Positions 173 through 36,147 of a DNA stretch of 64,000 nt are shown piece by piece. The notes beneath the pieces are model-generated. The model saw only the letters and a list, made by a program, of their open reading frames with translations. It made no database searches and was not told the DNA's origin. This DNA is from an uncultured Planctomycetia bacterium (GTDB taxonomy: Bacteria > Planctomycetota > JAKEIC01 > CAZDSO01). The translations under genes were made by a program, and so were the position numbers. Location: the NCBI GenBank assembly GCA_964508045.1, contig CAZDSO010000001.1:746-64745 (forward strand), read 5' to 3'. Every line of letters begins with the position of its first letter. The stretch's first letter is position 1.

Positions 173-1312
173 TCATCGCGTTGCGGCCATCGCCTCCACC
201 TCCTCGTCCCACGCCGGCACCATGCGATCCCACGAGAACCTCTCCACCGCGCGGATGCCCCGCTTCCCGTCCCCCTGCCACAAATCATCCCTCTCCACCC
301 TCCGCGCAAGATCCGCGAGCCTTCGCACGAGATCCCTCCCGTCGTCCTCGTAGAAGAAGGAGTCCTTTCCCTCCCCCTCGTCTCCGGCGAAGACCTCCGG
401 GTACGCGAGCCTCCTCGGCACCAGCGGGAAGGCGCCGGCCGCCGTTGCCTCCACCAGGCTGATCCCGAAGAACTCGTGCCGCGCCGTCGAGACCGCCACG
501 TCGGATTCCATCAGCGCTTCGCGGTACGCCTCCCGCGATTCGAGGTATCCCCAGCGGAGGATGCGCGAGGCGAAGCGTTGCCGCGCTTCCTCGAAGACGG
601 CTTCCACGTTCCGCCCGCTTCCGCCGCCGACCACGGACAGCTGGAACGGGACGTCCTCCGACGCGAGCCCGTCCAGCGCCCGGAAGAACGTCTCCGGCGC
701 CTTGTCCCACTCCCATCGCGCGGACCAGAGAATGCGAAGCGGCCCGGGCTTGCGGGGGCCCCGTTCCGGGAAGGGGTCGATGCCGGGATGCCGCACGCGC
801 GACTTCTTGCGGATCGCCTCGACGCTCTCGAGGTTTTGGTGGTCGGGCATCCTCACGAGGAACGCCTCGAGGCCGCCGAGGAAGCTGTCCCGGTGGAAGG
901 CCGAGTTGAACCAGACGCAGGAGGCGGCGAGCGCCGAGGTCATGTTGGTGAAGGCGAAGTGGTAGTCGAATTCGGACGCGTGCCGGACGGGGTAGGTGAT
1001 CTGGTTCTCGTGGAAGTAGACGAGGCTCGGCAGGATCTTCACCGGCGCCGGCGCGAGTCCGAGAAACGCCGCGAGGTCCAGCATGTCGGAGCAAAAGACG
1101 AGATCCCATGTTTCGCCGGATGCGGCGCGCCGGGCCGCCTCGCCCGCGAAGGTCACGGAAGCGTGCCTCATGCGCCACTTCCACTTGCGGGGAGGCAGGG
1201 TCAACAGGGTCCACTCGTGGCGGCTCCGCTTGGCCCAACCGTCGAGAAACGCCTTGTGGCTCCCGCCGTAATAGGGCTCGAGCGCGAGGATGTTCATCTG
1301 CGGGACCTTCAA
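173..1312 (-). CDS. GT4-type glycosyltransferase with a DUF3524-like N-terminus (tRNA-queuosine mannosyltransferase-like family)
   Basis: 379-aa ORF. The N-terminus NILALEPYYGGSHKAF is typical of DUF3524. The C-terminal GT-B motif HEFFGISLVEATAAG is EX7E-like. An alternative start at the second Met (MNILAL) is possible. Confidence 0.75.
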   Translation of the reverse strand: MKVPQMNILALEPYYGGSHKAFLDGWAKRSRHEWTLLTLPPRKWKWRMRHASVTFAGEAARRAASGETWDLVFCSDMLDLAAFLGLAPAPVKILPSLVYFHENQITYPVRHASEFDYHFAFTNMTSALAASCVWFNSAFHRDSFLGGLEAFLVRMPDHQNLESVEAIRKKSRVRHPGIDPFPERGPRKPGPLRILWSARWEWDKAPETFFRALDGLASEDVPFQLSVVGGGSGRNVEAVFEEARQRFASRILRWGYLESREAYREALMESDVAVSTARHEFFGISLVEATAAGAFPLVPRRLAYPEVFAGDEGEGKDSFFYEDDGRDLVRRLADLARRVERDDLWQGDGKRGIRAVERFSWDRMVPAWDEEVEAMAATR

Positions 1313-1343
1313 GCAGGCCTCGATGCGGCAAGCGCCGTCCAGT

Positions 1344-1590
1344 GATTTCAGATTTCAGCCGTCAGATTTCAGAATCCCCTAGTCAACCAGAGGTGTTTAC
1401 AGCACTCCGCCTTCGGCTTCGTGTTTCACTACGAACCGTTGCATTCTACTTTCAATTGCGGATATTGACGAACACGCTGTTGTACAGCGCTCATTCCTGC
1501 CTCGGATCAAGGCCCTTGCGGACCGGGCGAGGCAGACGCGGCGCCGGCTGAAATCCGAAATCTCCAATCTGAAATCCCTACGCGACGCCA
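1344..1590. repeat. MITE-like element bounded by inverted arrays of the GATTTCAG word
   Basis: Left end is gatttcagatttcagccgtcagatttcagaatcccc (1344-1380). Right end is ctgaaatccgaaatctccaatctgaaatccctacgcgacgcc (1548-1590). The two ends are reverse complements of each other in 10-16 nt blocks. The interior is lower in GC and non-coding. Confidence 0.6.
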
Positions 1591-1662: not shown

Positions 1663-4600
1663 ATGCCTCGCCCCGAAGACCGGCTTGTCGGGATGATCCT
1701 CAACGGCCGCTACCGCGTGCAGGAGCGACTCGGCACCGGCGGCATGGCCTCCGTCTATCGCGTCCACGACGAGCTCGAAGACCGCGCCGCCTGCCTCAAG
1801 GTCCTCTTCGAGGGCGGGGACGACTCGGTCGAGCGGGAACTCCTCGTCCAGGAGTTCCGCACCCTCAAGGGACTCAAGCACCCCAACCTCGAGGAAGTCT
1901 ACGACTTCGGCCGCCTCGAGGGCGAAGACGCCCACTTCTTCTCCAATGAGCTCGTCGACGGCGCCGACCTCGGCGCCGCCTCGAAGGACCTCGACTTCGG
2001 GGCGCTCACCGAATGCCTCGTGCAGATCTGCCGCGCCCTCCAGTACATCCACTCTCGTGGGCTCGTCCATCTCGACATCAAGCCCGAGAACATCCTCGTC
2101 CGGCGAGGCCCCGAGGGAGATCCCCAGGTCAAGATCATCGACTTCGGCCTGGTCTCGAAACGGGACAATCCCCTCGGGGAGGAAATCCGCGGAACCCTCG
2201 CCTACGTGGCCCCGGAGATCCTCCGAGGCGAGGCGTCCGACCACCGCGCGGACCTCTATTCCCTCGGCGTCACCCTCTACCGCCTCCTCTCCGGCGGTGA
2301 GCACCCCTTCTCCGCGAAGTCGGACGTCGAGTCCGTCCTCCAGCGGTTCTCCCGGCAGGTCGACGCGCCCGTCTCCCCCCTCGGCGACATCCCCCCCTAT
2401 CTCGTCCGCGTCACGCTCCGGCTGCTCGAGGCCTCTCCGGAAAACCGGTATCCCGACGCCAACGCCATCATCGAGGACATCCGGCGCGCCACCCGAAAAC
2501 CCTACCCCCTCGAAACCGAGGAAAGCCGGGAAGGACGCGTCCTCTCCGGGCGCTTCGTCGGACGCGAACAGGAGATGGAAACCGTCACAACCCTCCTGGA
2601 CGAGGCCGCCGGCCGCGGCGCGCGGAAGCACGTCCTGATCACCGGCGAGGCCGGCGCCGGCAAGACCCGCTTCCTCCGCGAGATCGCCGTCCGCGCCCAG
2701 GTCGCGGGCCAGCGCGTATTCCGCGGAACCGCCCCGAAACGCGGCGCCGGCGCCTACGCCCACCTCGCCGGCGTCCTCACGGAACTCGTCCTCACCCTCG
2801 GCCGGGAACACCCCCGGGTCCGCGAACACGGCCCCCCCCTCGCCCGCATCCTGCCGGCACGCCTCGGGCTCGGCGATCCCCCGCCCCCGCTGGAAGGGCG
2901 CGCCGAGAGCATCCGCATCGCGGACGCGGCGAGCCGGCTGGTGCTCGGCTTCGCGCGCGGAAAACCGACGGTGGTCCTGCTGGACGATCTGGACCGCGCG
3001 GACCCCGGCACGGCGGACGCGCTGGCCTATCTGGTCCGGTCCACCCCCGCCTCCGGCGACGGCGCGCCGTCGCTGCTCGTCGTCGCGACGATCCGGGAAA
3101 CGGGTAGGAAGGAAGGCCCCGCTTCCCGCCTGTTCGGGGCGACCGAGACGAAGGCGGAATGGACGGAGGTCCCGCTCGGCCCCCTGGACGAGACGGCCGT
3201 GCAGGATCTCCTGGAGTCCATGTTCGGGGCCGGGGAGGTTCCGGATACGTTCCTCGAGCGGATCTTCGCGGCGAGCCGGGGCAACCCCCTTTTCCTGGAA
3301 GAGGCCGTCAGACTCCTCGCGGCGCGGGGGGATCTCCGCTGGACGGGCCGCCGGTGGGCATTTCCGGCGAGACCGGAGTCGGTGTCCATCCCGGAGAATC
3401 TCGAGGAGATCTTCGATCAATCGTTGCGGGACGTCGAGGAGGAGGACCGCGGGATCCTGGAAGCGATGGCGGTCTGGGGAAGGCCGGCCGGGGTGCGCGC
3501 GCTCCAGGCGACGCTGGGCGGGCGGTCTCTCGCGTCGGCCGCGGCCTCCCTGGCCAGGCTGCACGGCCGGGATCTGGCGGAACGAATGGACGAGGCGTCC
3601 GGGGCGCGCTGGCGGGTTCGGGGAAGCCTTTTCGAGGCGTACCTCTACGGCCGGATCCCGGCGGACGAGAAGAAGCGTCTCCACGGCCGGGCGGGGGCCT
3701 TTCTCGAGGAGCAGGGCGCGGAAGGCGCGCATGCGCTGGCGGAGGTGTCCCGTCATCTCCTCGCGGGAGGTCGGGGAGCGCAGGGCGTGGAGCGCGCGCT
3801 GGAGGCGGGCCGGAGGTTTCTGGACGTGGCGCAGTTCGACCGGGGCATCACGGTGTTGAAGCTGGCGGAAGAGGAAACGGGGGAGGCCGATGCTGCGACG
3901 CTCTCGGCGCTGCACTCGCTGGCGGGGAAGTGCCGGATGTACTCGGGGGACATGCCCGGCGCGCTGGAAGCGTTCCGGAAGGCGGATCGGCACCTGGAGA
4001 GGCAGGGGGCAAAAGCGCGAAAGGAGAGGCTCGAGATCCTCATCCACATCGGGGACATCCTGCGCGTGCTGGGCAGGGAAGAAGAAGGTTTCCGCTTCCT
4101 GGAACGGAGCGAGGCGATCGCGGCGGAGACGGGGGATCCGCTGGACGCGGCCCGGATCCGGCTGCACAAGGGAAACCGGCTCTGCGTCACGGGCCGGGTG
4201 GCCGAGGGGTTTCGGATCCTCGAGGAGGCGATCGGGGACCACGAGGCCCTCCTCGAACTCAACGAGGGCGCCGTCGCCAGCCTCCACCTGGCCAACCGCG
4301 AGGCGCGCCGCGGGGATCTCGCCAAGGCGGAGACCTGGCTCGCCGTCTCGGAACGGTACGCCCGCCGGCGGGGATCGAAGCACGGTCTTGTGATCGCCGA
4401 GCGGTACCGGGGCTACTGGGCCATGGAGGCGGGCCGGCTGGAGGAAGCGCGGAAACACCTCGAGGCGGCGCTCGCGCTCGTGCGCGAGATCGGCCACCGG
4501 AAGGAGGAAGGGTTCACGCTCGAGCCGCTGGTGAACGTGAACCTCGAGCTGGGGCGCTACGAGGAGGCGGAACGGCTGGTCCAGGAGGGGATGGCGACCT

Positions 4601-7600
4601 TCCAGGCGCTGGGGGACGAGGCCGCGGTCACGCGCCTGTACCAGAACCAGAGCGATTTCTGCCTCCTGCGGGGCGAGTTCGACGAGGCGATCGCCGTGCA
4701 GCATTCCGTCCTCCGGTTCTGGCAGGAGAAGGGGCATCCACTCTGGATCCCGGTCTCCGAGCTCAACACCGGCCAGGTCCACGTCGCGACCGGCCGCCCC
4801 GCCGAGGCCCTCCTCCATCTCCGGCAGGCGCTCACCCGTTTCCGGGACCTCGGGCAGTCGTCGTACATGCTGCATACCCGCCGCGTCCTCGGCGAACATT
4901 ACCTCGCGCGGGGCAAGTGGCGCGCGGCCCTTCGCATCACCGAGCGATGCCTGGAAAGCGGGGGCCCGGAGGGCAGCATCCCGGGCGAGGGTGTGGTCCG
5001 GTCGTTGCGGGCGATGGCCCTGGCGCACCTCGGACGGGTCAAGGAGGCGGAAGAGGAAGGAGAGCGGGCCTCCCGTCGCCTGGCGAAGGACGGGAACGTC
5101 CACATCGGCCTGGAGGAGGCGTTCCACAAGGCGCTGCGCGCCCGCGAGCGGGGACATTTCACGAGCGCGGCGGCCGGCCTCGCGCCGGTGCTCGAGACGG
5201 CGCGGGAGCGGGGGCGCCGGTCGCTCGAGCTGCGCGCCCTCGCGGTCCTGGGCGAGGTGCGGGTTCGTGAAGGATCCCTCGCGAAGGCCCTCCTATGCCT
5301 CAACCGCGCGACGGCCCTGAACCAGGGCGTGAAGGGCCGCCTCGAGGGCGTCGAGATCCGCCTCGCCCGCGCCGGTCTCTTCGAGCGGCTCGGCGACGAC
5401 GCCGAAGCACGGGCCGCCGCCCGCGAGGCGATCGCCCTCGCGGAATCCCTGAGAAATCCCGCCCTTGCCGGACGCGCCCGCCTCGCGGCGGGGCGCCTGG
5501 ATCGCCTGGCCAAGCGGGAAAACGCGCGGTCCCACCTCGAGGGGGCGCTCGCGTCCCTCCGGCGCGCCGGGGACCACCGAGGGCTCTGCGAGGTCCGGCT
5601 CGAGCTCGCCCGCCTCCTTCCCGCCGGCGAAGCCCGGCGGCAACGCGATGAGACGGAACGCCTCCTGGAAAACACCGGCACCCCCGATCTCGAGGCCCGG
5701 CTCGCCCTGCAACGGGCGGAATCCCGCGCCCGGGAAAGCGGTCCCGCGCCCGGGATCGAAGCCCTCCTCGAGAAGGCGCTCACCGCCGCGCGCGCGTCGG
5801 GAGACCGGGACCTGGTCCGGCGGGCGCACCATGCGCTGGCCTGCCTGCAGGCGGGGCGGGCGGAAAGCGGACGCCCCGCGCCGCACGCGACCGAGGCCCG
5901 GTCCATCGAGGAGGAGATGGCCTCGGACCTGCCGGAAGCACGGCTGGATGCCTTCCGGAAAACCAACGCCGGGATCCGCCGCGATATCGAGCGGATCTTC
6001 CGCCCCGAGGCGGGCGCGCCGCGAGAAAGCGCTCCCCCGGCGACGACTGCGGAAGCCTCGCCCCGCGAGGTCCATACCCTGCGGTCCATCCTCGAGGTCT
6101 GCAAGGAGTTCAACGCCGAGACGAATTTCCCGGATCTCCTCACCCGCATCCTGGACGACGCGATTTCCCTCTTCGGCGCCCGGCGCGGCTTCCTCCTGAT
6201 CGACACCGGGAAAGCGCTGGAGCCGCTGGTGTCCAGGAACTTCCGCGAGGAAGACGAGGCGGACCTCAGGATCAGCCGGACTCTCGCCCGCCGCGTCTTC
6301 GAGACCGGGCGGGGCGTCCATACCGGGAACGTGCTGGAGGAGGAAGCCTTCCTGGACAGCCACAGCGTGCACGCGCTGAAGTTGCAATCGGTCCTGTGCG
6401 CCCCGCTCAGAAGCGCCGGGGAGGCCGTCGGCGCCCTCTACCTGGACCAGCCGGCTCTCGAGGAGGCGTTCCGGGAAAAAGACCTGGATCTCCTCGGCGC
6501 CCTGGCCGACCTGGCCGGAATCGCGATCGAGAACGCCCGGCTGCTCGAAGGCCTTCAAGAGCGCGAGCGCGAGCTGGAGGAGAGGAATCTCGATCTGACG
6601 GAGGAAGTCCAGACGCGGATCCTCGAGGTCGAGGAGGTCCGGCGCACGCTGCACGATCGCGAACGGGAACTGAAAGGACGGGACCTCTACAAGGAAATCG
6701 TCGGGGAGAGCGAGGCCGTGCGACGGCTCTTCTCCCTCCTCGACCGCGTCAGCGCGTCCGCCCTTCCCGTGGTCCTCCAGGGCGAGACCGGAACCGGCAA
6801 GGAACTCGCGGCCCGGGCCGTTCACCAGGGCAGCGTCCGACGGGCCCGGCCGTTCGTGAGCGTCAACTGCGCGGCCCTCCCCGAGAACCTCCTGGAAAGC
6901 GAGCTCTTCGGCTACCGAAAGGGTGCCTTCACCGGCGCGACGAAGGACAGCTTGGGCCTGTTCGTCCACGCCGACGGCGGCTCGCTCTTCCTCGACGAGA
7001 TCGGCGACATGAGCCCCTCGCTCCAGGCCAAGCTCCTCCGCGTCCTCCAGGAAGGTGAGGTCCGGCCCCTGGGCGAAAAAACCTCCGTGCCCGTGGACGT
7101 GCGCATCCTCTGCGCGACCAACCGCGACCTCGCCGAGCGCGTCGAAGCGGGCGCCTTCCGCGAGGACCTCTTCTACCGACTGAACGTCCTCCGCGTCGAA
7201 CTCCCCTCCCTCAGGGAAAGACGGGAGGACATCCCCCTCCTGGCCTCCCATTTCCTCAAGGAGGTCCTCAAGAAGGAGAAGAGGAAGGAGAGGGACCTCA
7301 TCCTCTCCCAGTCCGCCCTGAAGGCCTTGAAGCGGCATCACTGGCCCGGAAACGTCCGCGAGCTGAAGAACACGATCGAAAGGGCCGCGGTCTTCGCCTC
7401 CTCCGACCGGATCACGGCCGAGGAGATCGAACTGGTGTTCCACCGGGAACCGGGGGAGGAGAAGGCCGAGGAGACGGATGCGCCCGGCGACTACCGCGAG
7501 GCCAAGACCGCCTTCGAGAAGGCCTACATCGAGAGGATGCTCCGGCGGCACGAGGGAAACGTGACCCGGGCGTCCGAGGAAGCCGACCTCCAGCGGGGTT

Positions 7601-7656
7601 ACTTCCACCGTCTGATGAAGAAATACGGCCTCAAGGCGGCCGATTTCAAGCAGTGA
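1663..7656 (+). CDS. Ser/Thr protein kinase / STAND (AAA_16-like) ATPase / TPR / GAF / sigma-54 enhancer-binding AAA+ / Fis-type HTH fusion protein
   Basis: 1,997-aa uninterrupted ORF. Kinase motifs: GTGGMASVY, HLDIKPENILV, DFGLV, YVAPE. P-loop ITGEAGAGKT with LLDDLD. Long helical-repeat middle. GAF-like block (LRSILEVCKEF...GFLLID). Sigma-54 core: [33 protein letters not shown]-terminal HTH NVTRASEEADLQRGYFHRLMKKYGL. Confidence 0.9.
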   Translation: MPRPEDRLVGMILNGRYRVQERLGTGGMASVYRVHDELEDRAACLKVLFEGGDDSVERELLVQEFRTLKGLKHPNLEEVYDFGRLEGEDAHFFSNELVDGADLGAASKDLDFGALTECLVQICRALQYIHSRGLVHLDIKPENILVRRGPEGDPQVKIIDFGLVSKRDNPLGEEIRGTLAYVAPEILRGEASDHRADLYSLGVTLYRLLSGGEHPFSAKSDVESVLQRFSRQVDAPVSPLGDIPPYLVRVTLRLLEASPENRYPDANAIIEDIRRATRKPYPLETEESREGRVLSGRFVGREQEMETVTTLLDEAAGRGARKHVLITGEAGAGKTRFLREIAVRAQVAGQRVFRGTAPKRGAGAYAHLAGVLTELVLTLGREHPRVREHGPPLARILPARLGLGDPPPPLEGRAESIRIADAASRLVLGFARGKPTVVLLDDLDRADPGTADALAYLVRSTPASGDGAPSLLVVATIRETGRKEGPASRLFGATETKAEWTEVPLGPLDETAVQDLLESMFGAGEVPDTFLERIFAASRGNPLFLEEAVRLLAARGDLRWTGRRWAFPARPESVSIPENLEEIFDQSLRDVEEEDRGILEAMAVWGRPAGVRALQATLGGRSLASAAASLARLHGRDLAERMDEASGARWRVRGSLFEAYLYGRIPADEKKRLHGRAGAFLEEQGAEGAHALAEVSRHLLAGGRGAQGVERALEAGRRFLDVAQFDRGITVLKLAEEETGEADAATLSALHSLAGKCRMYSGDMPGALEAFRKADRHLERQGAKARKERLEILIHIGDILRVLGREEEGFRFLERSEAIAAETGDPLDAARIRLHKGNRLCVTGRVAEGFRILEEAIGDHEALLELNEGAVASLHLANREARRGDLAKAETWLAVSERYARRRGSKHGLVIAERYRGYWAMEAGRLEEARKHLEAALALVREIGHRKEEGFTLEPLVNVNLELGRYEEAERLVQEGMATFQALGDEAAVTRLYQNQSDFCLLRGEFDEAIAVQHSVLRFWQEKGHPLWIPVSELNTGQVHVATGRPAEALLHLRQALTRFRDLGQSSYMLHTRRVLGEHYLARGKWRAALRITERCLESGGPEGSIPGEGVVRSLRAMALAHLGRVKEAEEEGERASRRLAKDGNVHIGLEEAFHKALRARERGHFTSAAAGLAPVLETARERGRRSLELRALAVLGEVRVREGSLAKALLCLNRATALNQGVKGRLEGVEIRLARAGLFERLGDDAEARAAAREAIALAESLRNPALAGRARLAAGRLDRLAKRENARSHLEGALASLRRAGDHRGLCEVRLELARLLPAGEARRQRDETERLLENTGTPDLEARLALQRAESRARESGPAPGIEALLEKALTAARASGDRDLVRRAHHALACLQAGRAESGRPAPHATEARSIEEEMASDLPEARLDAFRKTNAGIRRDIERIFRPEAGAPRESAPPATTAEASPREVHTLRSILEVCKEFNAETNFPDLLTRILDDAISLFGARRGFLLIDTGKALEPLVSRNFREEDEADLRISRTLARRVFETGRGVHTGNVLEEEAFLDSHSVHALKLQSVLCAPLRSAGEAVGALYLDQPALEEAFREKDLDLLGALADLAGIAIENARLLEGLQERERELEERNLDLTEEVQTRILEVEEVRRTLHDRERELKGRDLYKEIVGESEAVRRLFSLLDRVSASALPVVLQGETGTGKELAARAVHQGSVRRARPFVSVNCAALPENLLESELFGYRKGAFTGATKDSLGLFVHADGGSLFLDEIGDMSPSLQAKLLRVLQEGEVRPLGEKTSVPVDVRILCATNRDLAERVEAGAFREDLFYRLNVLRVELPSLRERREDIPLLASHFLKEVLKKEKRKERDLILSQSALKALKRHHWPGNVRELKNTIERAAVFASSDRITAEEIELVFHREPGEEKAEETDAPGDYREAKTAFEKAYIERMLRRHEGNVTRASEEADLQRGYFHRLMKKYGLKAADFKQ

Positions 7657-7866: not shown

Positions 7867-7883
7867 TTGGCATGAATGGTGCT
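7867..7883 (+). promoter_or_regulatory. candidate sigma-54 (-24/-12) promoter
   Basis: TTGGCATGAATGGTGCT has GG(7869-70)-N10-GC(7881-82) spacing, matching TGGCAC-N5-TTGCW at most positions. It lies about 40 nt upstream of the ATG at 7923, with GGAGG at 7911-7915, and follows an AT-rich tract. Confidence 0.5.
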
Positions 7884-7922: not shown

Positions 7923-9896
7923 ATGAACTCGAAACACGTTTGGATCGGCTCTCTCCTGGCCCTGTTCCTGTTCTTCACGGTCTCCTGCAAGAAGGAGGGG
8001 GTCGAGTTGACCTCCGTGACGGTCACGGGGGAGACGGAGGCGCTGGCGAAGGGGAAATCCCAGATCCTGGAAGCGGAAGGGACCTACAGCGACGGGACCA
8101 CGGCGACGATCGAGGTGAAGTGGAGCGTGTCGGATCCCTCGCTGGGCGAAATCCTCGCCGTTTCGGGGTCGCCGGAGAAGGCCGTTCTGCAAACGCTTGA
8201 GGAGGGGGAGTTGACGGTCCGGGCGGAAGCGAAGGAGGAGCCGGCGGTGAGCGCGTATTTCACCGTGACGGTGTTCGAGCCGGTGATGGAATCCATCGTG
8301 GTGTCGCCGGGATCTGCGAGCGTTCCCGAGGGCCTGACCGCGGCGTTTTCCGTGGAGGCCGAATACAGCGACGGGACGACGGCCCCGGTCTCCGTGGAAT
8401 GGTCCTCGAGCGACGAGGGGATCGCGACGGTGGACGGGACGGGCACCGTGACGACCGTTTCCCTGGGCGAGGCGACGATCACGGCGACGACCCTGGAAGA
8501 GCCGATCTTCTCGGACGCGGCGACGGTGACGGTGCTCGAGGCCGTTCCGGTGGGGCTTGCGGTCTCGCCCGCTTCCGCGTCGCTCGAGGAGGGCTGCACG
8601 CTGTCCTTCACGGCGTCGGTGAAGTACTCGGACGGATCCACGGGGGATCCGATCGAGGCGACGTGGACGAGCGCCGACGGGAACGTGGCGGTGATCGACG
8701 CCTCGGGCACGGCCACGGGCGTGGCGGCGGGCGTGGTGACCCTCACGGCCACGGCCGTCTCCGACGCGAGCCTTACGGGCGAGGCGGATCTGACGGTGGT
8801 GCCGGGTGTGGTGTCCATCTCGGTGACGCCGGGGACGGCGTCGGTGGTGCCGGGGAACACGCAGTCCTTCACGGCCACGGGGACGTACTCGGACCAGTCC
8901 ACGGCGCCCGTGGCGGTGACGTGGTCGAGCTCGAACACGACGGTGGCGACGATCGACGCCTCCGGCGTGGCGACGGGTCACACGAAGGGGACGGCGACGA
9001 TCACGGCGGCCTACCAGGCGAATCCGGGCGTGACGGGCTCCGCGACGCTGACGGTGGCCCCGTTCACCCGCATGTACATGAACAACAATCCCGACATCGA
9101 TTCGGTTCCCTTCACCGGCGGGTCCGGCCGGAACGACTACGTGGCTTCGACGCGCGTCCGCAGCATCCTGGTGAGCCGGGACAAGCAGACGCTCTACATG
9201 CTGGACGGGAACGGGGCGCTGTACGGCCTGGATCTCACCACGTATCAGCTGCAGACCCTGATCGCTTCGAGCTCGCCCCTGCTCCGCCAGGCCCTGAGCA
9301 TCGACGCGCAGGGGAACCTCTTCGCGGCGGGCTACAGCTACGTCAACAGCACGAACATGTACTCCGTCGAGAAGATCGACCCTTCCACCTGGACGGTCTC
9401 CACCTTCAGCCCCCTGGGGAACTCGACCTGCTATCACGACACCCTTCCCATGAACGGCGACGTCTACGTCGCGACCTGGGGCGGGATCGCAAGGGCGTCC
9501 TCGGGCGCGGCACCCACGAACGTCTTCACGAGCGGCATGAACGTGTTCACCAGCATCGCGGCCGACGCCAACGGGGACCTGTACACCGTCGAGTTCTGGA
9601 ACAAGGACGTGTGGAAACTCACGGACCTGAACAGCGACGGCAACTATTACGGCATGGGCGAATCCGGCGTATTCAAGAACTACGGAATGCAGTGGATCTG
9701 CGAGGTGGAGATGGACGCCGAGGACAGCCTCTACGTGGCCGAGCTGCAACAGGACGCCTCGAATCCCTCCCACGGCATCTGGAAGCTCCGGGATCTGAAC
9801 AACGACGGAGACGCCGTGGACGCCGGCGAGGGCTCGATCTGGTGCACGCGACCCTACCTCTCGGGCTGGGGCGGCGGCGGCATGAGCTTCAAGTAG
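7923..9896 (+). CDS. lipoprotein with four Big_2 (bacterial Ig-like) repeats and a C-terminal NHL/beta-propeller-like domain
   Basis: Lipobox signal MNSKHVWIGSLLALFLFFTVSC. Four ~85-aa repeats of the form V.P..A.v..G.t..ftA...YSDGtt..v...W.SS. The C-terminal half has repeated D.(Q/N)G(N/D)L(F/Y) blade-like motifs. Confidence 0.85.
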   Translation: MNSKHVWIGSLLALFLFFTVSCKKEGVELTSVTVTGETEALAKGKSQILEAEGTYSDGTTATIEVKWSVSDPSLGEILAVSGSPEKAVLQTLEEGELTVRAEAKEEPAVSAYFTVTVFEPVMESIVVSPGSASVPEGLTAAFSVEAEYSDGTTAPVSVEWSSSDEGIATVDGTGTVTTVSLGEATITATTLEEPIFSDAATVTVLEAVPVGLAVSPASASLEEGCTLSFTASVKYSDGSTGDPIEATWTSADGNVAVIDASGTATGVAAGVVTLTATAVSDASLTGEADLTVVPGVVSISVTPGTASVVPGNTQSFTATGTYSDQSTAPVAVTWSSSNTTVATIDASGVATGHTKGTATITAAYQANPGVTGSATLTVAPFTRMYMNNNPDIDSVPFTGGSGRNDYVASTRVRSILVSRDKQTLYMLDGNGALYGLDLTTYQLQTLIASSSPLLRQALSIDAQGNLFAAGYSYVNSTNMYSVEKIDPSTWTVSTFSPLGNSTCYHDTLPMNGDVYVATWGGIARASSGAAPTNVFTSGMNVFTSIAADANGDLYTVEFWNKDVWKLTDLNSDGNYYGMGESGVFKNYGMQWICEVEMDAEDSLYVAELQQDASNPSHGIWKLRDLNNDGDAVDAGEGSIWCTRPYLSGWGGGGMSFK

Positions 9897-9906
9897 GAGA
9901 GACGCC

Positions 9907-11064
9907 ATGAAGACCCTCTGCATCATCCTGATCCTCCTCGCGACCGGTCTTCTGGCTTCCGTCATCCTCCCGGTCCCCCTCGGGGACCGGGAGGAGACGG
10001 TTTCCGTACCGGCCTCGATGACAACCGACCCGGGCGACGCCGCGGAACCGTTCGGACGGGATCCCGGCGCCGCCGGGGCCCGCGCGGCCGCGGAGGAAAC
10101 TCTCGGTGCCGCGCCTCGGCGAGGGGAAGGCACCCGCGCTTCCGGTACGGCGCGCGCTCGCCTCCCGGAGCCGAGCGCCGGCGAGAAGGCCCCGGACGCG
10201 GTCCCCGGCCTTCTCGAAGACCTGGAAGCCGCCTTCGTGGCGGGACAATCCGCCGAGATGAAGGCCCTCCACGCCCGCATCCGGGCCCTGGGCGAGAAGG
10301 CCCTCGGTGACCTCGCTTCCTGCATCCGCTCCGCGAAGGACGCGACGACCGTCCTGCTGGCCATGGACGCCCTGGCGGGTCTTCGCGCGGCGCATCCCGG
10401 CTCGTCCGCGATCGAGGCCGCCTACGAGACCGCCGTCTTTCCGCGCGCGAAGGCGATCCTCGAATCCGTCGAGGATCCCGCGCTGCGCGCCCACGCCGCC
10501 TTTCACCTCGCCGCGTGCCGCCTCCCCGCGGGGGTGGACGTCCTTCTGGAGCGCGTGCGCCAGGACCGCGAGGAGCGGGTCCGGGCCGCCTGTCTGGACG
10601 CCCTGGTCCGCGAGAAGGAGCGCGGGGCCACGCCCGCGTTGGTGAACATGCTGGAGCTGGGCCTGCCGCACGAGGAGAGGTCCCGGCTCGGCATCGCCCG
10701 GGCGTCTCTGGCTCTGCTGGACGAATCGTCCCGCGCCCGGGGTCGCCGGCGCATCCACGCCGCGATGAAGGACGATCTGGAAGCGATCCTGCAGGACCCC
10801 GCGCCGCAGAACGCCGCGAGACGCTACGCCGCCTTCCACCTCCTTCTGCAGACGGCGCCCGGGGGCGACGCCCGGACGCTTGTCGAGGCGGTGCGGCGCG
10901 AGACGACCCCCGTCGTGTTCGCCGGCGTGGTCGATACGCTGGTGGACCGGAAGGAGACGGAGGATCTCGCGCCGGTGCTCGAAGAGATCGCCTGCGATGT
11001 CTCCCGGCCCGAGGGCGTGAAGCGGCTCGCGCGCGGGGCGCTTTCGAGGATCCGGGGCCGTTGA
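9907..11064 (+). CDS. secreted/anchored HEAT-like repeat protein
   Basis: N-terminal hydrophobic segment MKTLCIILILLATGLLASVIL. Repeated helical units contain D...(V/L)R..A...L. The gene starts 10 nt after the upstream gene. Confidence 0.7.
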   Translation: MKTLCIILILLATGLLASVILPVPLGDREETVSVPASMTTDPGDAAEPFGRDPGAAGARAAAEETLGAAPRRGEGTRASGTARARLPEPSAGEKAPDAVPGLLEDLEAAFVAGQSAEMKALHARIRALGEKALGDLASCIRSAKDATTVLLAMDALAGLRAAHPGSSAIEAAYETAVFPRAKAILESVEDPALRAHAAFHLAACRLPAGVDVLLERVRQDREERVRAACLDALVREKERGATPALVNMLELGLPHEERSRLGIARASLALLDESSRARGRRRIHAAMKDDLEAILQDPAPQNAARRYAAFHLLLQTAPGGDARTLVEAVRRETTPVVFAGVVDTLVDRKETEDLAPVLEEIACDVSRPEGVKRLARGALSRIRGR

Positions 11065-11123: not shown

Positions 11124-12308
11124 ATGGAAACCATGATGCTTCGATGGGCGTGCCTGGCAGGGACGGCTCTGGTCGTCACGATTGTTGCCGGCCCGGCGCT
11201 CGGGGACGTCGCCCCGAATCCTCTGGCCGGTGGGACGAGTCCCCACGTCCACGGGGACCCCACGTCGGTGGCGATGACGTGGGAGAAGGTGGAGATGGTC
11301 GTGACGGGGGACAAGGTGCTCGTCACCGCCGTCTTCGGTCTCACGAACACGGGCGACGCCGAAACCCTCCAGGTGGGGTTCCCCACGTTCCGGCGTTACG
11401 CCTTGAGGGATTTCACCGCGGAAGTCGACGGAAAGAGCGTTCCCGTCACGCGGAACAAGGGCTGGCATCTCTGGAGCATGGATTTCGCGGACAAGGAGGC
11501 CCGCACCGTCAAGGTTCGCTACTGGAACGAACCCGTCGAGGATTCCCGGGCCAATCAGCGGCTGGACGAGATCCCCTGCAAGGATCCGGAGGGATTCGAG
11601 GAGACGTTCCGGCGTTTCAAGGCCCACTACGTGCTGTACACGGGCGCGGGATGGAGGGGGCCCATCGGGACGGCGGAGATCGCCGTCCGGTTCGAGGGCA
11701 TGAAGGCGGACGAAGCCCTGAGAGCGTACAGCTACGGGGACGAGGCGACCCTCGACGAAGACGGCCTGACGTGGAAATTCCGCGACCTGGAGCCCGTGCA
11801 CGGCGGAGCGTACGATCACCTCACGGTGAAATGGTGCGCGAGGCGCTTCGAGGAGGAGAAGGAGGTGTTTCTCGATCTGGCCGGGAACAAACCGGACGAT
11901 ACGATGGTCCGCGTTCATCTCGCCAGGCTCCTTCGGTCGAGAAGGGATTTCCAGGGGGCGATGTCCCACTACCACCGCCTGATCGAAGGCGTGCTGTCGA
12001 GGCCCCTGCGGGACGGGGACCTCGTGCTCGTGGAACGAGGCCCCTGGGAGGAAATCGACTGGGTTCTCGAGGCCTGCGGGGCCATGGCGGAGATGTCGGA
12101 CCGGGTGCGGATCGAGAACCGCGTGCTGGAAACATGGCTCCAGCAGTGCATCGACGTCACGGGACGCATGGCGGGGGGAAAGGCCGTGGGACACTACAGG
12201 AAGGGATACTTCAAGCGAACGCTCGTCATGATACGGCCCACAGTGAGGAAGGTCCTCGAACGTTGCCGGAAAACGCTCGCAGGACTGGATCAACGCGGGG
12301 CCAAGTAG
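11124..12308 (+). CDS. secreted hypothetical protein (N-terminal beta-sandwich reminiscent of DUF4424, helical C-terminus)
   Basis: The ATG at 11124 gives signal peptide METMMLRWACLAGTALVVTIVAGPALG. The 203 codons upstream in the track ORF (10515-) are R/G/P-rich and overlap the HEAT gene. The family assignment is a weak motif resemblance only. Confidence 0.65.
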   Translation: METMMLRWACLAGTALVVTIVAGPALGDVAPNPLAGGTSPHVHGDPTSVAMTWEKVEMVVTGDKVLVTAVFGLTNTGDAETLQVGFPTFRRYALRDFTAEVDGKSVPVTRNKGWHLWSMDFADKEARTVKVRYWNEPVEDSRANQRLDEIPCKDPEGFEETFRRFKAHYVLYTGAGWRGPIGTAEIAVRFEGMKADEALRAYSYGDEATLDEDGLTWKFRDLEPVHGGAYDHLTVKWCARRFEEEKEVFLDLAGNKPDDTMVRVHLARLLRSRRDFQGAMSHYHRLIEGVLSRPLRDGDLVLVERGPWEEIDWVLEACGAMAEMSDRVRIENRVLETWLQQCIDVTGRMAGGKAVGHYRKGYFKRTLVMIRPTVRKVLERCRKTLAGLDQRGAK

Positions 12309-12406: not shown

Positions 12407-12925
12407 ATGAAGAGGTTCCTGCTGCTTTTCGTCATCGCCTGCGCGTCCTGCGCGTCCGCGCCCGCCGAGCGCGACGTTCGCGAGGGGGACGTCGAGGTCA
12501 TCGCCGCCTGGATCCTGGGCCGGGACACCGGCGGGGTCTTCGAGCATCCCTTCGCCGACAGCCGGTTTCTCTCGAAGGCGGAAGAACCGCTTCTCTATTC
12601 CGACGTCCGCGTCGGGAACCTGCCGACGCCCTTGTCCCAGAGGCCCTACGAGTTCGTCCTGGGGCGCATGCAGGCGATCCGGAGTCTGGAAGAGGACGGC
12701 GGGAATCCGGATCCCGCGGTCCTGATCACCACCTCGGTGGAACGCCTGCCCGAGGAGGGGGAACACGCCGACATCCAGATCATGCGATGGCGGGGGAAAC
12801 CGGGGGACCGGTACTACTACGTGGAAGTGGGCATCGGCACCATGGCCTGGCACTGGATCAAGGTCGTCATGCGCGGAACGCCGGGCGACAGGAAGGCCAT
12901 CGTCCTTCCGCTGGCGCTGTCCTGA
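12407..12925 (+). CDS. small lipoprotein, unknown function
   Basis: The ATG at 12407 gives MKRFLLLFVIACASC (lipobox). The upstream part of track ORF 11084- overlaps the preceding gene out of frame. Confidence 0.65.
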   Translation: MKRFLLLFVIACASCASAPAERDVREGDVEVIAAWILGRDTGGVFEHPFADSRFLSKAEEPLLYSDVRVGNLPTPLSQRPYEFVLGRMQAIRSLEEDGGNPDPAVLITTSVERLPEEGEHADIQIMRWRGKPGDRYYYVEVGIGTMAWHWIKVVMRGTPGDRKAIVLPLALS

Positions 12926-32169: not shown

Positions 32170-32445
32170 GGCGGGTTGATGGGTCGGACATGGATCCCCC
32201 CCATTGACCCATGACCGTCGCCGGCCACAAGCCGGTTCCCACCAACGCCTCTTTACGAAAGATGCAAAGCCCGTACCATTCCCACGATTCCCCGAAAACG
32301 GCCCAGGCTCCGTTTCTCCATGGGAAGCAAGGACGTTTCGGCGCCGGCGCGATCCCGAATCCGGCCCGTGCACAGACACTAGCTATCACAAGTTAACAAA
32401 ATCGGGGGAAACCGGATACTTGCTTACCTGCCAGGGAACGGCGCC

Positions 32446-32555: not shown

Positions 32556-33065
32556 TCAGCGCTTTTTCCGGCGGCGGGCCAGCTCCCGGTCCACGTCGCG
32601 CCGGGCGTCGCGCCGCTTCACGTCTTCCCGCCGGTCGAACAGTTTCTTCCCCCGGGCCAGGGCGATCTGCGTCTTCACGATCCCCCGGTGGTTGAAGTAG
32701 AGGGAAAGCGGGACGAGGGTGTACCCGCGCTCCACCAGCGCCCGCTGGATGCGGCGCAGTTCCCGCTTGTGCACCAGCAGCTTGCGGGGACGCTTGGGCT
32801 CGTGCGTGGCGTACCCCCGCATCTCGTACGCCGGGATGTCCATGTTGAACAGCCACAGCTCGCCCCCGCGCATGCGGCCGAAGGCCTCCATGATGGACGC
32901 CTTGCCGCCGCGCAGGGCTTTCACTTCCGTGCCGAGCAGCGCGACGCCGGCCTCGAGGCGGTCTTCGAGGTGATAGAGATGCGCGGCCTTGCGGTTCCCG
33001 GCGACAAGGCGGTATCCGGAAGGTTCCTCCGATCCGCCGGCGGTCTTCTTCGTCTTGCCTGCCAT
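32556..33065 (-). CDS. smpB: SsrA-binding protein
   Basis: GNRKAAHLYHLEDRLEAGVALLGTEVKALR...LLVHKRELRRI...ALARGKKLFDRRED. The start was assigned to MAGKTKK (ATG at 33065). Confidence 0.92.
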   Translation of the reverse strand: MAGKTKKTAGGSEEPSGYRLVAGNRKAAHLYHLEDRLEAGVALLGTEVKALRGGKASIMEAFGRMRGGELWLFNMDIPAYEMRGYATHEPKRPRKLLVHKRELRRIQRALVERGYTLVPLSLYFNHRGIVKTQIALARGKKLFDRREDVKRRDARRDVDRELARRRKKR

Positions 33066-33124
33066 GGTACGGACCCTGATACACGACGCGGCGCCGGGGC
33101 GCAAGGATCAGCCGGAGGGCGCGT

Positions 33125-33137
33125 TCTGAAATCCCTA
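33125..33137. repeat. solo CTGAAATCCCTAC unit of the GATTTCAG repeat family (5' flank of the tRNA)
   Basis: ctgaaatccctac is the reverse complement, with one mismatch, of gtaaggatttcag at 33372-33384. Confidence 0.55.
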
Positions 33138-33238: not shown

Positions 33239-33322
33239 GCGGCTGTGGCGGAATTGGCAGACGCGCAAGATTCAGGATCTTGTGAGCTTCGGCTCATGGG
33301 GGTTCAACTCCCCCCAGCCGCA
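33239..33322 (+). tRNA. tRNA-Leu (anticodon CAG)
   Basis: Hand-folded. Acceptor gcggctg/cagccgc. D arm gcg-gaattggcaga-cgc. Anticodon stem caaga/tcttg with loop ttCAGga. Long variable arm gagc-ttcg-gctc. T arm ggggg-ttcaact-ccccc. Discriminator A. CCA is not encoded. Confidence 0.93.
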
Positions 33323-33371
33323 CTACCAACGACGGCGCTTGAGGCACGTGCCGGCCTTCATCGCGAGCCCC

Positions 33372-36125: not shown

Positions 36126-36147
36126 CCCGGTTGGAGGAACGGCATCG

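What the first reader, a model, noticed from the sequence alone, without database searches (positions are those of the whole stretch)
1663..7656. One-polypeptide Ser/Thr-kinase / STAND ATPase / TPR / GAF / sigma-54 activator
A single uninterrupted 1,997-codon ORF encodes the following in order:
- a Hanks-type kinase (GTGGMASVY, HLDIKPENILV, DFGLV, YVAPE);
- a STAND-like P-loop (ITGEAGAGKT, LLDDLD);
- about 700 aa of TPR-like repeats;
- a GAF-like block and a coiled coil;
- a complete NtrC-type AAA+ core (QGETGTGKE, GAFTGA, ESELFG);
- a Fis-type HTH.
The kinase-STAND-TPR front resembles the PknK/MalT-like layout. Sigma-54 activators are normally driven by receiver or small-ligand domains. Here a eukaryote-like kinase and an ATP-dependent STAND switch appear hard-wired to RpoN-dependent transcription. 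I do not know this architecture to be characterised.
Basis: partly seen in the sequence, partly recalled or inferred. Interest (0 to 1): 0.7.

Follow-up and report, generated by a model that had tools for sequence, protein, structure and literature searches.

The report
Kinase–STAND–TPR–GAF sigma-54 activator fusion
This is a real 1,997-residue bacterial regulator that joins a Ser/Thr kinase, a STAND ATP switch with a long TPR sensor, and a complete sigma-54 transcription activator; it belongs to a widespread but unstudied family, and its likely target is the surface-protein gene next door.

Summary
ORF 1663-7656 is a single coding frame. The same ORF was assembled on at least 10 contigs from 4 samples. 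Its domains, in order, are a Hanks-type kinase, a STAND NOD, about 730 aa of TPR solenoid, a GAF domain, a 69-residue helix, a sigma-54 AAA+ core and a Fis-type HTH.

The architecture is not rare. Of the 120 best database relatives, 89 carry both Pkinase and Sigma54_activat. They come from Planctomycetota, Myxococcota, Nitrospirota, Acidobacteriota and other phyla, and are labelled only "sigma 54-interacting transcriptional regulator". I found no paper that characterises one.

New points from this work:
- The kinase keeps all its catalytic residues, but family-wide it lacks the Arg of HRD (a non-RD kinase).
- The best structural match of the NOD+TPR model is the MalT-clade STAND protein PH0952.
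- The same kinase-NOD-TPR-GAF front carries a His-kinase, a GGDEF or no output domain in relatives.
- A natural two-gene version exists.
- The gene directly downstream (a Big_2 lipoprotein) has a -24/-12 sigma-54 element 36-39 nt before its ATG. Two diverged orthologous loci have the same element. The activator-then-Big_2 gene order recurs in three genomes.

Best reading: the STAND module is the central switch, the kinase and the activator are both outputs, and the downstream envelope-protein operon is the target. I rate it a new variant of known kinds, of moderate interest.

The parts
1663..7656 (+). Whole gene: 1,997-aa kinase-STAND-TPR-GAF-sigma-54 activator
   Evidence: constant GC3 frame; same ORF on at least 10 contigs from 4 samples
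1690..2520 (+). Hanks-type Ser/Thr kinase domain (aa 10-286). It is non-RD (HLD instead of HRD); catalytic K46, E64, D138, K140, N143, D160 and the APE motif are present.
   Evidence: Pfam Pkinase E 3e-40. PknA/PknB structures match aa 9-286. Catalytic residues are conserved in 76-84 of 84 family members.
2551..3618 (+). STAND NOD (aa 297-652): P-loop NBD with Walker A GEAGAGKT (328-335) and Walker B LLDD (439-442), then a helical domain and a winged helix
   Evidence: Pfam AAA_16 5e-24 and a sub-threshold nSTAND_NTPase5 hit (27.7 bits against a 34-bit cut-off). AF2 fold with pLDDT about 90. Best PDB fold match is the STAND protein 6mfv_A.
3661..5853 (+). TPR-like solenoid sensor, about 36 helices (aa ~667-1397)
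   Evidence: Pfam TPR_12 and TPR_MalT; AF2 secondary structure; Pins/LGN TPR matches
5854..6060 (+). Low-confidence, probably flexible linker (aa ~1398-1466). This is where the natural two-gene version is split.
   Evidence: AF2 pLDDT below 50; split locus L012
6061..6531 (+). GAF domain (aa ~1467-1623)
   Evidence: Pfam GAF_2 2e-16; AF2 model
6475..6681 (+). Single 69-residue helix joining GAF to AAA+ (aa 1605-1673); candidate coiled-coil signalling helix
   Evidence: AF2 helix at fragment residues 166-234, pLDDT above 90
6697..7470 (+). Sigma-54 activator AAA+ core and lid (aa 1679-1936): Walker A 1707-1714, GAFTGA 1754-1759, Walker B FLDEIG 1776-1781, sensor and Arg-finger motifs
   Evidence: Pfam 1e-72. 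45-52% identity and rmsd 1.4-2.2 A to ZraR, FleQ, FlrC and NtrC1. Motif positions.
7492..7647 (+). Fis-type HTH DNA-binding domain (aa ~1944-1995)
   Evidence: HTH_8 21.1 bits against a 22-bit cut-off; AF2 helical bundle with pLDDT 96-97
7868..7883 (+). Candidate sigma-54 promoter, -24/-12 element TGGCATGAATGGTGCT. 39 nt separate it from the ATG of the next gene.
   Evidence: The same element sits at the same distance in orthologous loci L010 and L008.
7923..9896 (+). Predicted direct target: lipoprotein with four Big_2 Ig-like domains and an uncharacterised C-terminal region of about 280 aa
   Evidence: The activator-then-Big_2 gene order recurs in the P0002 contig and in L010.
9907..11064 (+). 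HEAT_2 protein with an N-terminal signal/TM segment, 10 nt after the Big_2 gene; probably the same operon
   Evidence: A HEAT_2 gene also follows Big_2 in the P0002 contig.
11133..12308 (+). 391-aa secreted protein of unknown family; possibly the same operon
12407..12925 (+). 172-aa putative lipoprotein; possibly the same operon

Best explanation
The gene encodes a sigma-54 enhancer-binding protein whose input is a MalT/PknK-type STAND module.

Inferred mechanism:
1. A ligand or partner protein binds the ~730-aa TPR solenoid. This lets the NOD exchange ADP for ATP and multimerise, as in MalT.
2. Multimerisation activates two effector modules at opposite ends of the chain.
   - The N-terminal Ser/Thr kinase is non-RD, so it is expected not to need activation-loop phosphorylation and to be switched on by proximity or conformation.
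   - The C-terminal GAF, long helix and AAA+ unit has its protomers brought together, or released from a GAF/helix-held off-state, so that they form the ATP-hydrolysing ring that remodels sigma-54 RNA polymerase.
3. The HTH tethers the protein near the sigma-54 promoter at 7868-7883. The product is transcription of the adjacent envelope operon: the Big_2 lipoprotein, the HEAT_2 protein and two further secreted proteins.

Shown here: the domain identities and their catalytic motifs; family-wide conservation of those motifs; the STAND fold; the conserved -24/-12 element; the conserved gene order.

Inferred, not shown: the order of events, the nature of the signal, the kinase substrates and the DNA-binding site.

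The confidence of 0.55 is for the whole STAND-centred, two-output mechanism. My confidence is about 0.95 that this is a genuine fused kinase-STAND-TPR-GAF sigma-54 activator, and about 0.7 that the downstream Big_2 operon is its target.
For: Domains and motifs:
- Domains and motifs are intact.
- Kinase catalytic residues are conserved in 76-84 of 84 family members, while the HRD Arg is replaced (G38, L18, F9, C5).
- In the STAND Walker A, G328, G331 and G333 are kept in 80-84 of 84 and K334 in 57 of 84. In Walker B, D441 is kept in 56 and D442 in 67 of 84.
- The NOD+TPR model has pLDDT 85 and pTM 0.80. Its best PDB match is the TPR-sensor STAND 6mfv_A (E 3e-12, 781 aligned columns).

Modularity of the output:
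- Among the 120 best relatives, 89 carry a sigma-54 output, 18 HisKA/HATPase_c, 3 GGDEF and 11 none, all behind the same front.
- About 19 Chloroflexota proteins of roughly 1,700-2,180 aa share the kinase+NOD (27-37% identity) and the GAF (32-40%) but end in a His kinase.
- Locus L012 encodes kinase-NOD-TPR (1,257 aa) and GAF-AAA+-HTH (550 aa) as two genes overlapping by 14 nt. The second gene has its own GAGGAGG Shine-Dalgarno and ATG.

Target:
- TGGCAY-N5-NTGCT elements lie 36-39 nt before the ATG of the Big_2 gene in the window, in L010 and in L008.
- All three match TGGCACN5TTGCW with at most 2 mismatches. In the window that pattern occurs 12 times per 128 kb. The expected counts for the three spacers are about 0.025, 0.033 and 0.06, so the joint chance is about 5e-5.
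- The activator-then-Big_2 gene order is found in three genomes whose activators are 41-48% identical to the window's.
- No sigma-70-like promoter is predicted in the 266-nt spacer.

Literature: STAND proteins carry effector domains at either end and multimerise when induced; PknK is a STAND kinase (PMC4381067, PMC6468293).
Against: - There are no biochemical data for any family member.
- No conserved upstream activator site or palindrome was found in the three Big_2 upstream regions, so DNA targeting is unsupported beyond gene adjacency.
- The Big_2 orthologue in L008 has the sigma-54 element but no adjacent kinase-activator. The closest paralogue, P0003, has no such element downstream. Linkage is therefore not universal.
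- In 25 of 84 family members the STAND Walker A Lys is Arg, so nucleotide switching may not be general. The window protein itself has the canonical Lys.
- rpoN itself was not seen in the window.
- How a STAND multimer would be compatible with a closed AAA+ hexamer is unknown.
Confidence: 0.55

Rival explanations
1. The kinase is the cis-acting input. The protein autophosphorylates on Ser/Thr, for example in the kinase-NOD linker, the 1398-1466 linker or the GAF domain. That phosphorylation, rather than STAND multimerisation, gates the AAA+ activator. The STAND/TPR part would mainly regulate the kinase, as the C-terminal region is said to do in PknK.
For: The kinase is catalytically intact and conserved across the family. 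The kinase always accompanies the NOD in these proteins. A flexible linker lies between TPR and GAF. From memory, not verified here: Myxococcus has sigma-54 activators with FHA input domains, which implies Ser/Thr-kinase control of such activators in trans (Jelsbak et al. 2005, cited in PMC12288465).
Against: The protein has no FHA or other phospho-Thr reader domain. The same kinase-NOD-TPR front exists with no downstream output domain at all (11 of 120), so the kinase must have other substrates. No phosphosite conserved across the family was identified. This rival is not exclusive of the main model.
Confidence: 0.25
2. It is essentially a NifA/NorR/FhlA-like GAF-regulated activator. A small ligand bound by GAF is the real signal. 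The N-terminal 1,450 residues are an independent kinase/scaffold module that merely shares the polypeptide.
For: The best NCBIfam match of aa 1473-1924 is NifA (385 bits). GAF directly precedes AAA+, as in NifA. The two-gene form shows that GAF-AAA+-HTH can be a stand-alone polypeptide.
Against: The NifA score is well below its 529-bit cut-off. GAF stays attached to the kinase-NOD-TPR scaffold when the output is swapped for a His kinase or GGDEF. That pattern argues GAF is a transmission element of that scaffold. The two genes of the split form overlap by 14 nt, which implies co-expression and stoichiometric partnership.
Confidence: 0.12
3. It is an anti-phage STAND (Avs-like) defence protein whose kinase is the toxic effector.
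For: Avs3 appears among the fold matches (rank 11). PADLOC kinase models (PD-T4-6) hit the kinase domain.
Against: The PADLOC hits are generic domain-level matches. No Avs/STAND model is among the 25 best of the 38 matching families, and the neighbouring genes have no defence hits. The C-terminus is a complete transcription activator with a conserved cognate promoter next door. The family has stable gene order rather than a defence-island context.
Confidence: 0.03
4. It is an assembly or frameshift artefact that fuses separate genes.
For: A genuine two-gene arrangement exists in another organism.
Against: The identical ORF is found on at least 10 contigs from 4 samples and two assembler pipelines. 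The codon-position GC signature is uninterrupted. Collinear relatives of 1,997 aa (48% identity) and 1,971 aa (41%) exist, as do dozens of fused relatives.
Confidence: 0.01

Closest known systems
Bacterial enhancer-binding proteins with a GAF regulatory domain (NifA, NorR, FhlA)
   Same: GAF, then a linker helix, then the sigma-54 AAA+ core (GAFTGA, Walker A/B, Arg fingers), then a Fis-type HTH. There is 45-54% identity to solved AAA+ cores (ZraR, NifA, FleQ, NtrC1). A -24/-12 promoter lies next to the gene.
   Different: About 1,450 extra N-terminal residues (kinase, STAND NOD, TPR). It scores below every NCBIfam equivalog cut-off. The GAF-AAA+ helix is 69 residues long. No known ligand can be inferred.
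PknK of Mycobacterium tuberculosis / MalT-clade STAND proteins (including PH0952, PDB 6mfv)
   Same: An N-terminal Hanks kinase is followed by a P-loop NOD and a TPR sensor. PknK is described as a STAND kinase of the MalT subfamily (PMC4381067) and as 'kinase + MalT-like' (PMC1262709).
   Different: The window protein adds a second, C-terminal effector (GAF plus sigma-54 activator), has a much longer TPR array, and has a non-RD kinase. MalT's effector is a LuxR-type HTH that acts with sigma-70, not an ATPase that acts on sigma-54.
Cyanobacterial 'dual protein kinases' (cbSTKIII: HstK/Alr2258, Pkn40, Pkn41) and the ~2,020-aa Chloroflexota relatives found here
   Same: An N-terminal Ser/Thr kinase with a GAF domain before the C-terminal output (PMC2176072). 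The Chloroflexota proteins share kinase+NOD (27-37% identity) and GAF (32-40%) with the window protein.
   Different: Their output is HisKA/HATPase_c instead of a sigma-54 AAA+ domain and HTH. I could not fetch the cyanobacterial sequences to confirm that they contain the NOD/TPR part.
Kinase-TPR-GGDEF proteins (for example the 1,826-aa Clostridium thermocellum protein)
   Same: A very large kinase-plus-TPR scaffold with a dimerisation-dependent output domain (PMC1262709). GGDEF-ending relatives appear among the hits here (P0075 and P0112; P0005 has both GGDEF and a sigma-54 domain).
   Different: The output is a diguanylate cyclase, not a transcription activator.
Kinase-sigma-54 activator fusions of Sorangium cellulosum and other myxobacteria (recalled from Schneiker et al. 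2007 and Perez et al. 2008; neither paper could be read here)
   Same: Pkinase plus Sigma54_activat in one polypeptide. Myxococcota members are among the hits (Polyangium spumosum WP_170319261.1, Kofleriaceae, Polyangiales).
   Different: These are only 36-43% identical, and only over the C-terminal quarter. Many lack a detectable AAA_16/TPR part. To my knowledge they have been listed in genome surveys, not studied.

Membership tests
Sigma-54 enhancer-binding proteins (NtrC-family AAA+) | AAA+ core with Walker A, Walker B, sensor motifs and Arg fingers | tested here: met
   Sigma54_activat E 1e-72 and AAA_lid_14. GETGTGKE 1707-1714, FLDEIG 1776-1781, CATNRDL 1817-1823, FREDLFYRL 1832-1840, WPGNVREL 1894-1901. 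Rmsd 1.4-2.2 A to solved activators.
Sigma-54 enhancer-binding proteins (NtrC-family AAA+) | GAFTGA loop that contacts sigma-54 | tested here: met
   GAFTGA at aa 1754-1759. G[AS]FTGA is present in 84 of the relatives surveyed.
Sigma-54 enhancer-binding proteins (NtrC-family AAA+) | C-terminal Fis-type HTH | tested here: inconclusive
   HTH_8 scores 21.1 bits against a 22-bit cut-off. AF2 gives a confident helical bundle at aa 1944-1995. The domain is probably present but divergent.
Sigma-54 enhancer-binding proteins (NtrC-family AAA+) | A cognate -24/-12 promoter with an upstream activator site | tested here: inconclusive
   A -24/-12 element lies at 7868-7883 and is conserved in two orthologous loci. 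No shared upstream activator site was found.
Sigma-54 enhancer-binding proteins (NtrC-family AAA+) | rpoN present in the genome; ATP-dependent open-complex formation | not testable with these tools
   rpoN was not among the window genes I annotated. A second activator in the window (46451-48136) suggests the organism uses sigma-54.
NifA (NCBIfam TIGR01817 equivalog) | Score above the curated equivalog cut-off | tested here: not met
   385.4 bits against a cut-off of 528.85
Hanks-type Ser/Thr protein kinases | Gly-rich loop, VAIK Lys, alphaC Glu, catalytic HxD..KxxN, DFG, APE, subdomain IX Asp | tested here: met
   G24/G26, K46, E64, H136/D138/K140/N143, D160-F-G, T178, A183-P-E and D197 are all present. 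They are conserved in 58-84 of 84 relatives; the Gly-loop residues are the weakest at 58-61. Pkinase E 3e-40.
Hanks-type Ser/Thr protein kinases | Arg of the HRD motif (RD kinases, activated by activation-loop phosphorylation) | tested here: not met
   The motif is HLD here. Across the 84 aligned members the position is G38, L18, F9, C5 and others; only 3 of the ~120 relatives surveyed have HRD. This is a non-RD kinase.
STAND NTPases, MalT/PknK clade | NOD made of a P-loop NBD (Walker A/B), a helical domain and a winged helix | tested here: met
   AAA_16 E 5e-24 and a sub-threshold nSTAND_NTPase5 hit. The AF2 model shows an alpha/beta P-loop domain, a helical domain and a winged helix with a beta-hairpin. 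The best PDB fold match is the STAND protein 6mfv_A.
STAND NTPases, MalT/PknK clade | Repeat-type sensor domain C-terminal to the NOD | tested here: met
   TPR_MalT 53 bits against a 45-bit cut-off, and TPR_12; about 36-helix solenoid
STAND NTPases, MalT/PknK clade | Inducer-dependent ADP/ATP switch and multimerisation | not testable with these tools
   Needs biochemistry
Cyanobacterial dual kinases (cbSTKIII / HstK) | C-terminal HisKA/HATPase_c domain | tested here: not met
   No HisKA or HATPase_c hit among the 25 best Pfam families for the window protein. Relatives with that ending exist.
Anti-phage STAND (Avs) systems | Match to Avs/defence STAND models and a defence-island context | tested here: not met
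   PADLOC gives only generic kinase and activator-domain hits; the neighbouring genes have none.

The most novel reading that the evidence does not exclude
Two different P-loop ATPase switches work in series within one polypeptide. ATP-dependent multimerisation of the STAND NOD would directly template assembly of the sigma-54 AAA+ ring and at the same time switch on a non-RD Ser/Thr kinase. One sensing event would then produce both a transcriptional and a phosphorylation output. The kinase-NOD-TPR-GAF unit would be a general, portable input cassette for any oligomerisation-activated output (AAA+ activator, His kinase, GGDEF).
Probability: 0.35. Interest if true: 0.7.

Novelty: new variant of a known kind. 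Interest (0 to 1): 0.5.

Why it matters
Sigma-54 activators are textbook examples of control by receiver, PAS, GAF or V4R domains. STAND proteins are textbook oligomerisation switches, from MalT to NLRs. This family joins the two and adds a eukaryote-like kinase.

It is abundant in Planctomycetota, Myxococcota and other phyla rich in signalling genes, yet no member has been studied, as far as I could find.

The window gene comes with a ready-made read-out: a conserved sigma-54 promoter and target gene immediately downstream. That makes several questions directly testable:
- How does a STAND multimer control an AAA+ ring?
- What is a non-RD bacterial kinase doing on a transcription factor?
- Why can the same input cassette drive an activator, a His kinase or a GGDEF output?

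The practical pay-off is modest. The protein comes from an uncultured organism and the signal is unknown.

Tried and rejected
- **Genome scan, whole protein.** A scan of the genome collection with the whole protein found no close relative. A second scan, with an alignment of the kinase+NOD part, found one sigma-54-type locus (a Planctomycetota MAG) and about 19 His-kinase-type proteins.
- **Big_2 homology search.** The search was swamped by Ig-repeat proteins. Only two full-length orthologues (P0126, P0134) were usable.
- **Upstream activator site.** I looked for shared k-mers and inverted repeats in the three Big_2 upstream regions. Nothing exceeded chance: two shared 7-mers against about 0.9 expected.
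- **Other loci.**
  - The P0003 paralogue locus has no -24/-12 element.
  - L007 has CGGCACGTGAAGTGCA 190 nt after the stop codon, but the contig ends there.
  - L012 has only a weak TGGCAT-N5-TTGT element downstream.
  - The kinase-STAND-TPR gene in L011 has no activator neighbour.
- **Literature.** Ten full-text searches (nine ran; one was rejected for its syntax) found no paper describing a kinase-sigma-54 fusion. The papers most likely to mention it were not in the library: Perez 2008, Schneiker 2007, Bush & Dixon 2012, Pereira 2011 and Jelsbak 2005.
- **Defence-system reading.** Rejected after the PADLOC scan.
- **Assembly-artefact reading.** Rejected.
- **Taxonomy.** The window's MetRS is only 52% identical to its best named relative, a Planctomycetales MAG. 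The organism can only be called an uncultured, possibly Planctomycetota-related bacterium.
- **Sigma-70 promoter and terminator scan.** It found nothing between the activator gene and the Big_2 gene.

Full report
**1. Observation**

The window contains one ORF, 1663-7656 on the + strand, of 1,997 codons. The DNA is about 70% G+C, so long spurious ORFs occur in every frame. I therefore checked the codon-position signature. GC3 is 0.83-0.95 and GC2 is 0.34-0.59 in this frame along the entire ORF, and the pattern collapses within about 150 nt outside it. There is no sign of a frame change at nt 2500, 6000 or 6650.

The identical protein is called on at least 10 contigs from four samples and two pipelines: JGI 3300029258 and 3300029267, and ENA ERZ27256773 and ERZ27256796. 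A 1,997-aa relative at 48% identity (P0002) and a 1,971-aa relative at 41% identity, collinear over 2,017 columns with 3% gaps (L010), show that the fusion is ancient and not an assembly product.

**2. Anatomy**

Pfam places the domains as follows:
- Pkinase at aa 17-263
- AAA_16 at 297-468
- TPR_12 and TPR_MalT between about 870 and 1131
- GAF_2 at 1487-1623
- Sigma54_activat at 1679-1845
- AAA_lid_14 at 1851-1936
- HTH_8 at 1951-1988, marginally below threshold

No NCBIfam equivalog is reached. The best is NifA, at 385 bits against a cut-off of 529.

An AlphaFold2 model of aa 285-1484, built with 45 relatives, has mean pLDDT 85 and pTM 0.80. It shows an alpha/beta P-loop domain, a helical domain and a winged helix with a beta-hairpin, which together form a STAND NOD. 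About 36 helices of uninterrupted TPR-like solenoid follow, up to about aa 1397, and then a low-confidence linker. Foldseek's best PDB hit is 6mfv_A, the TPR-sensor STAND protein PH0952 (E 3e-12, 781 aligned columns). Avs3 also appears among the matches.

A model of aa 1440-1997 has pLDDT 90. It shows GAF, one 69-residue helix (aa 1605-1673), the AAA+ domain and a confident helical bundle at the HTH position. The AAA+ domain superposes on FleQ, FlrC, ZraR and NtrC1 at 1.4-2.2 A with 45-52% identity.

All sigma-54-activator signature motifs are present: Walker A, ESELFG, GAFTGA, Walker B DE, sensor I, the Arg fingers and sensor II.

**3. How common is it?**

The architecture is widespread. The homology search returned 1,075 proteins at E <= 1e-10. 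Among the 120 best:
- 89 carry both Pkinase and Sigma54_activat. Most also have AAA_16, TPR, GAF and HTH_8. They are 1,440-2,160 aa long.
- Their source labels include Planctomycetes/Planctomycetota, Deltaproteobacteria/Myxococcales (Polyangium spumosum WP_170319261.1, Kofleriaceae, Polyangiales), Nitrospirae, Calditrichaeota, Thermoanaerobaculia and Methylomirabilota.
- They are annotated only as 'sigma 54-interacting transcriptional regulator' or 'GAF domain-containing protein'.

The organism of the window is uncultured. Its MetRS is only 52% identical to the best named relative, a Planctomycetales MAG. The orthologous loci L010 and L007/L013 are from Planctomycetota MAGs.

**4. Are the enzymatic parts functional?**

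I aligned the N-terminal parts of 84 sigma-54-bearing members.

Kinase residues conserved, out of 84:
- K46: 82
- E64: 77
- H136: 84
- D138: 80
- K140: 76
- N143: 80
- D160: 83
- G162: 78
- T178: 76
- P184 and E185: 84 each
- D197: 74
- G202: 83

This is the pattern expected of an active kinase under purifying selection.

The Arg of the HRD motif is almost never present. The position is G in 38 members, L in 18, F in 9 and C in 5, and only three sequences read HRD. The family is therefore non-RD. From general kinase knowledge, non-RD kinases usually do not depend on activation-loop phosphorylation.

The STAND Walker A glycines are conserved in 80-84 of 84. The Walker A Lys is K in 57 members and R in 25; the window protein has the canonical GEAGAGKT. 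The Walker B Asp residues are kept in 56 and 67 of 84.

**5. Modularity**

The same front end occurs with other outputs.
- Among the 120 best hits, 18 end in HisKA/HATPase_c (about 2,020 aa), 3 carry GGDEF (one of them together with the sigma-54 module) and 11 have no output domain.
- I scanned species-representative genomes with an alignment of kinase+NOD. This returned one sigma-54-type protein (a Planctomycetota MAG) and about 19 proteins of roughly 1,700-2,180 aa from Chloroflexota MAGs (Anaerolineae, Caldilinea, Thermoflexales). The Chloroflexota proteins share the kinase+NOD (27-37% identity) and the GAF (32-40%) but end in a His kinase.
- In locus L012 the system is split into two genes. 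A 1,257-aa kinase-AAA_16-TPR gene overlaps by 14 nt a 550-aa GAF-Sigma54_activat-HTH_8 gene that has its own GAGGAGG Shine-Dalgarno and ATG. The split falls exactly in the segment that is a low-confidence linker in the fused protein.

These facts argue that kinase-NOD-TPR(-GAF) is a portable input cassette. They also argue that the C-terminal module is an effector that can be exchanged for other oligomerisation-dependent outputs.

**6. Target**

Downstream on the same strand lie four genes:
- a lipoprotein with four Big_2 domains (7923-9896)
- a HEAT_2 protein (9907-11064)
- two further proteins with signal peptides (11133-12308 and 12407-12925)

The 266-nt spacer contains TGGCATGAATGGTGCT at 7868-7883, with 39 nt between the element and the ATG. 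Window-wide, the consensus with at most 2 mismatches is no more frequent than chance (12 found, 12 expected), so the hit matters only because of where it lies.

Comparative data make it convincing.
- P0002 (48% identical) is also followed by Big_2 and HEAT_2 genes.
- L010 (41% identical) is followed by the Big_2 orthologue P0126. TGGCACGATCCCTGCT lies 38 nt before that gene's ATG.
- The Big_2 orthologue P0134 in L008 is not linked to an activator gene. It still carries TGGCATGGCCCGTGCT 36 nt before its ATG.
- Using the window's own frequency for the a priori pattern (9.4e-5 per position), the chance of a hit in all three spacers is about 5e-5, before even counting the matching distance.

No sigma-70-like promoter or terminator is predicted in the spacer. 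I could not find a conserved upstream activator site.

**7. Mechanism**

STAND proteins carry effector domains at either end. They switch from a closed ADP form to an open, multimerising ATP form when the sensor binds its inducer, and PknK is a STAND kinase of the MalT subfamily (PMC4381067, PMC6468293). Putting that together with sections 2-6, the best-supported model is the following:
- The TPR solenoid senses the signal.
- The NOD switches and multimerises.
- The multimer activates both the non-RD kinase and the GAF-helix-AAA+ activator.
- The activator then opens the sigma-54 promoter of the adjacent envelope operon.

The main rival has the kinase gating the activator in cis by autophosphorylation. 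It is not excluded and may coexist with the main model. A pure GAF-ligand model, a defence-system reading and an artefact are all unlikely.

**8. Comparison with what is known**

The C-terminal third is a bona fide member of the sigma-54 activator family of the GAF-regulated kind, but it is not NifA. The front is a bona fide MalT/PknK-clade STAND kinase.

Published relatives with the same logic but another output:
- the cyanobacterial dual kinases HstK, Pkn40 and Pkn41 (Ser/Thr kinase, GAF, HisKA; PMC2176072)
- a Clostridium thermocellum kinase-TPR-GGDEF protein (PMC1262709)

From memory, kinase-sigma-54 fusions were noted in the Sorangium cellulosum genome and myxobacterial kinome papers. I could not read either paper here. 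Ten full-text searches of the held library found no description or characterisation.

**9. Verdict**

The finding is real and correctly read at the domain level. It is a member of a large, uncharacterised, auto-annotated family that combines two well-known kinds of switch.

This analysis adds:
- the non-RD signature of the kinase
- structural support for the STAND assignment
- the evidence for output swapping and for a natural split-gene form
- a concrete, conserved candidate target promoter

Noticed in passing
window 1332-1588; 33115-33135 and 33375-33395; 43985-44045: A REP/MITE-like family of intergenic inverted repeats built on GGGATTTCAGA / TCTGAAATCCC. TCAGATTTCAG with at most 1 mismatch occurs 6 times against 0.5 expected. 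In the spacer upstream of the kinase-activator gene, two 41-nt arms lie 175 nt apart. At about 33.1-33.4 kb the arms flank tRNA-Leu(CAG) at 33239-33323. At 44.0 kb they form a compact hairpin.
   Followed up: partly
window 32263-32278 (-): The only other strong -24/-12 match in the window is TGGTACGGGCTTTGCA. It lies in the intergenic region downstream of smpB (32556-33104, -) and upstream of a Glu-rich ORF. It may be a second sigma-54 promoter.
   Followed up: partly
window 46451-48136 (-): A second, conventional sigma-54 activator with XylR_N, V4R, Sigma54_activat and HTH_8 domains. It shows that the organism uses sigma-54 more widely.
   Followed up: no
window 12938-15580 (-): An 880-aa ORF (870 aa in the JGI gene call) encoding a Ser/Thr kinase (canonical HRD) fused to an FGE-sulfatase domain. 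It converges on the putative Big_2 operon.
   Followed up: no
window 33516-37518 (+): A chemotaxis-type cluster: a CheA with Hpt, CheW and receiver domains (869 aa), followed by a methyl-accepting protein (456 aa).
   Followed up: no
window 173-1312 (-): The divergently transcribed neighbour is a GT4 glycosyltransferase with a QTMAN_N domain (tRNA-queuosine mannosyltransferase N-terminal domain, E 6.5e-62). This is an unusual annotation for a bacterium.
   Followed up: no
L012 5415-10827: A natural two-gene version of the system. The kinase-AAA_16-TPR gene (1,257 aa) overlaps by 14 nt a GAF-sigma-54 activator gene (550 aa) that has its own Shine-Dalgarno sequence. A FlgD_ig-domain secreted protein lies downstream.
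   Followed up: yes
L014-L035 (Chloroflexota MAG loci): About 19 proteins of roughly 1,700-2,180 aa in Anaerolineae, Caldilinea and Thermoflexales MAGs share the kinase-NOD-TPR-GAF front but end in a His kinase. They form a large 'dual kinase' family outside the cyanobacteria.
   Followed up: partly
P0002 contig (JGI 3300042731, no DNA available): Upstream of the 48%-identical orthologue lie an FHA protein, a second HEAT_2 protein and a 1,481-aa kinase. This hints at a wider Ser/Thr-phosphorylation neighbourhood around this regulator.
   Followed up: no
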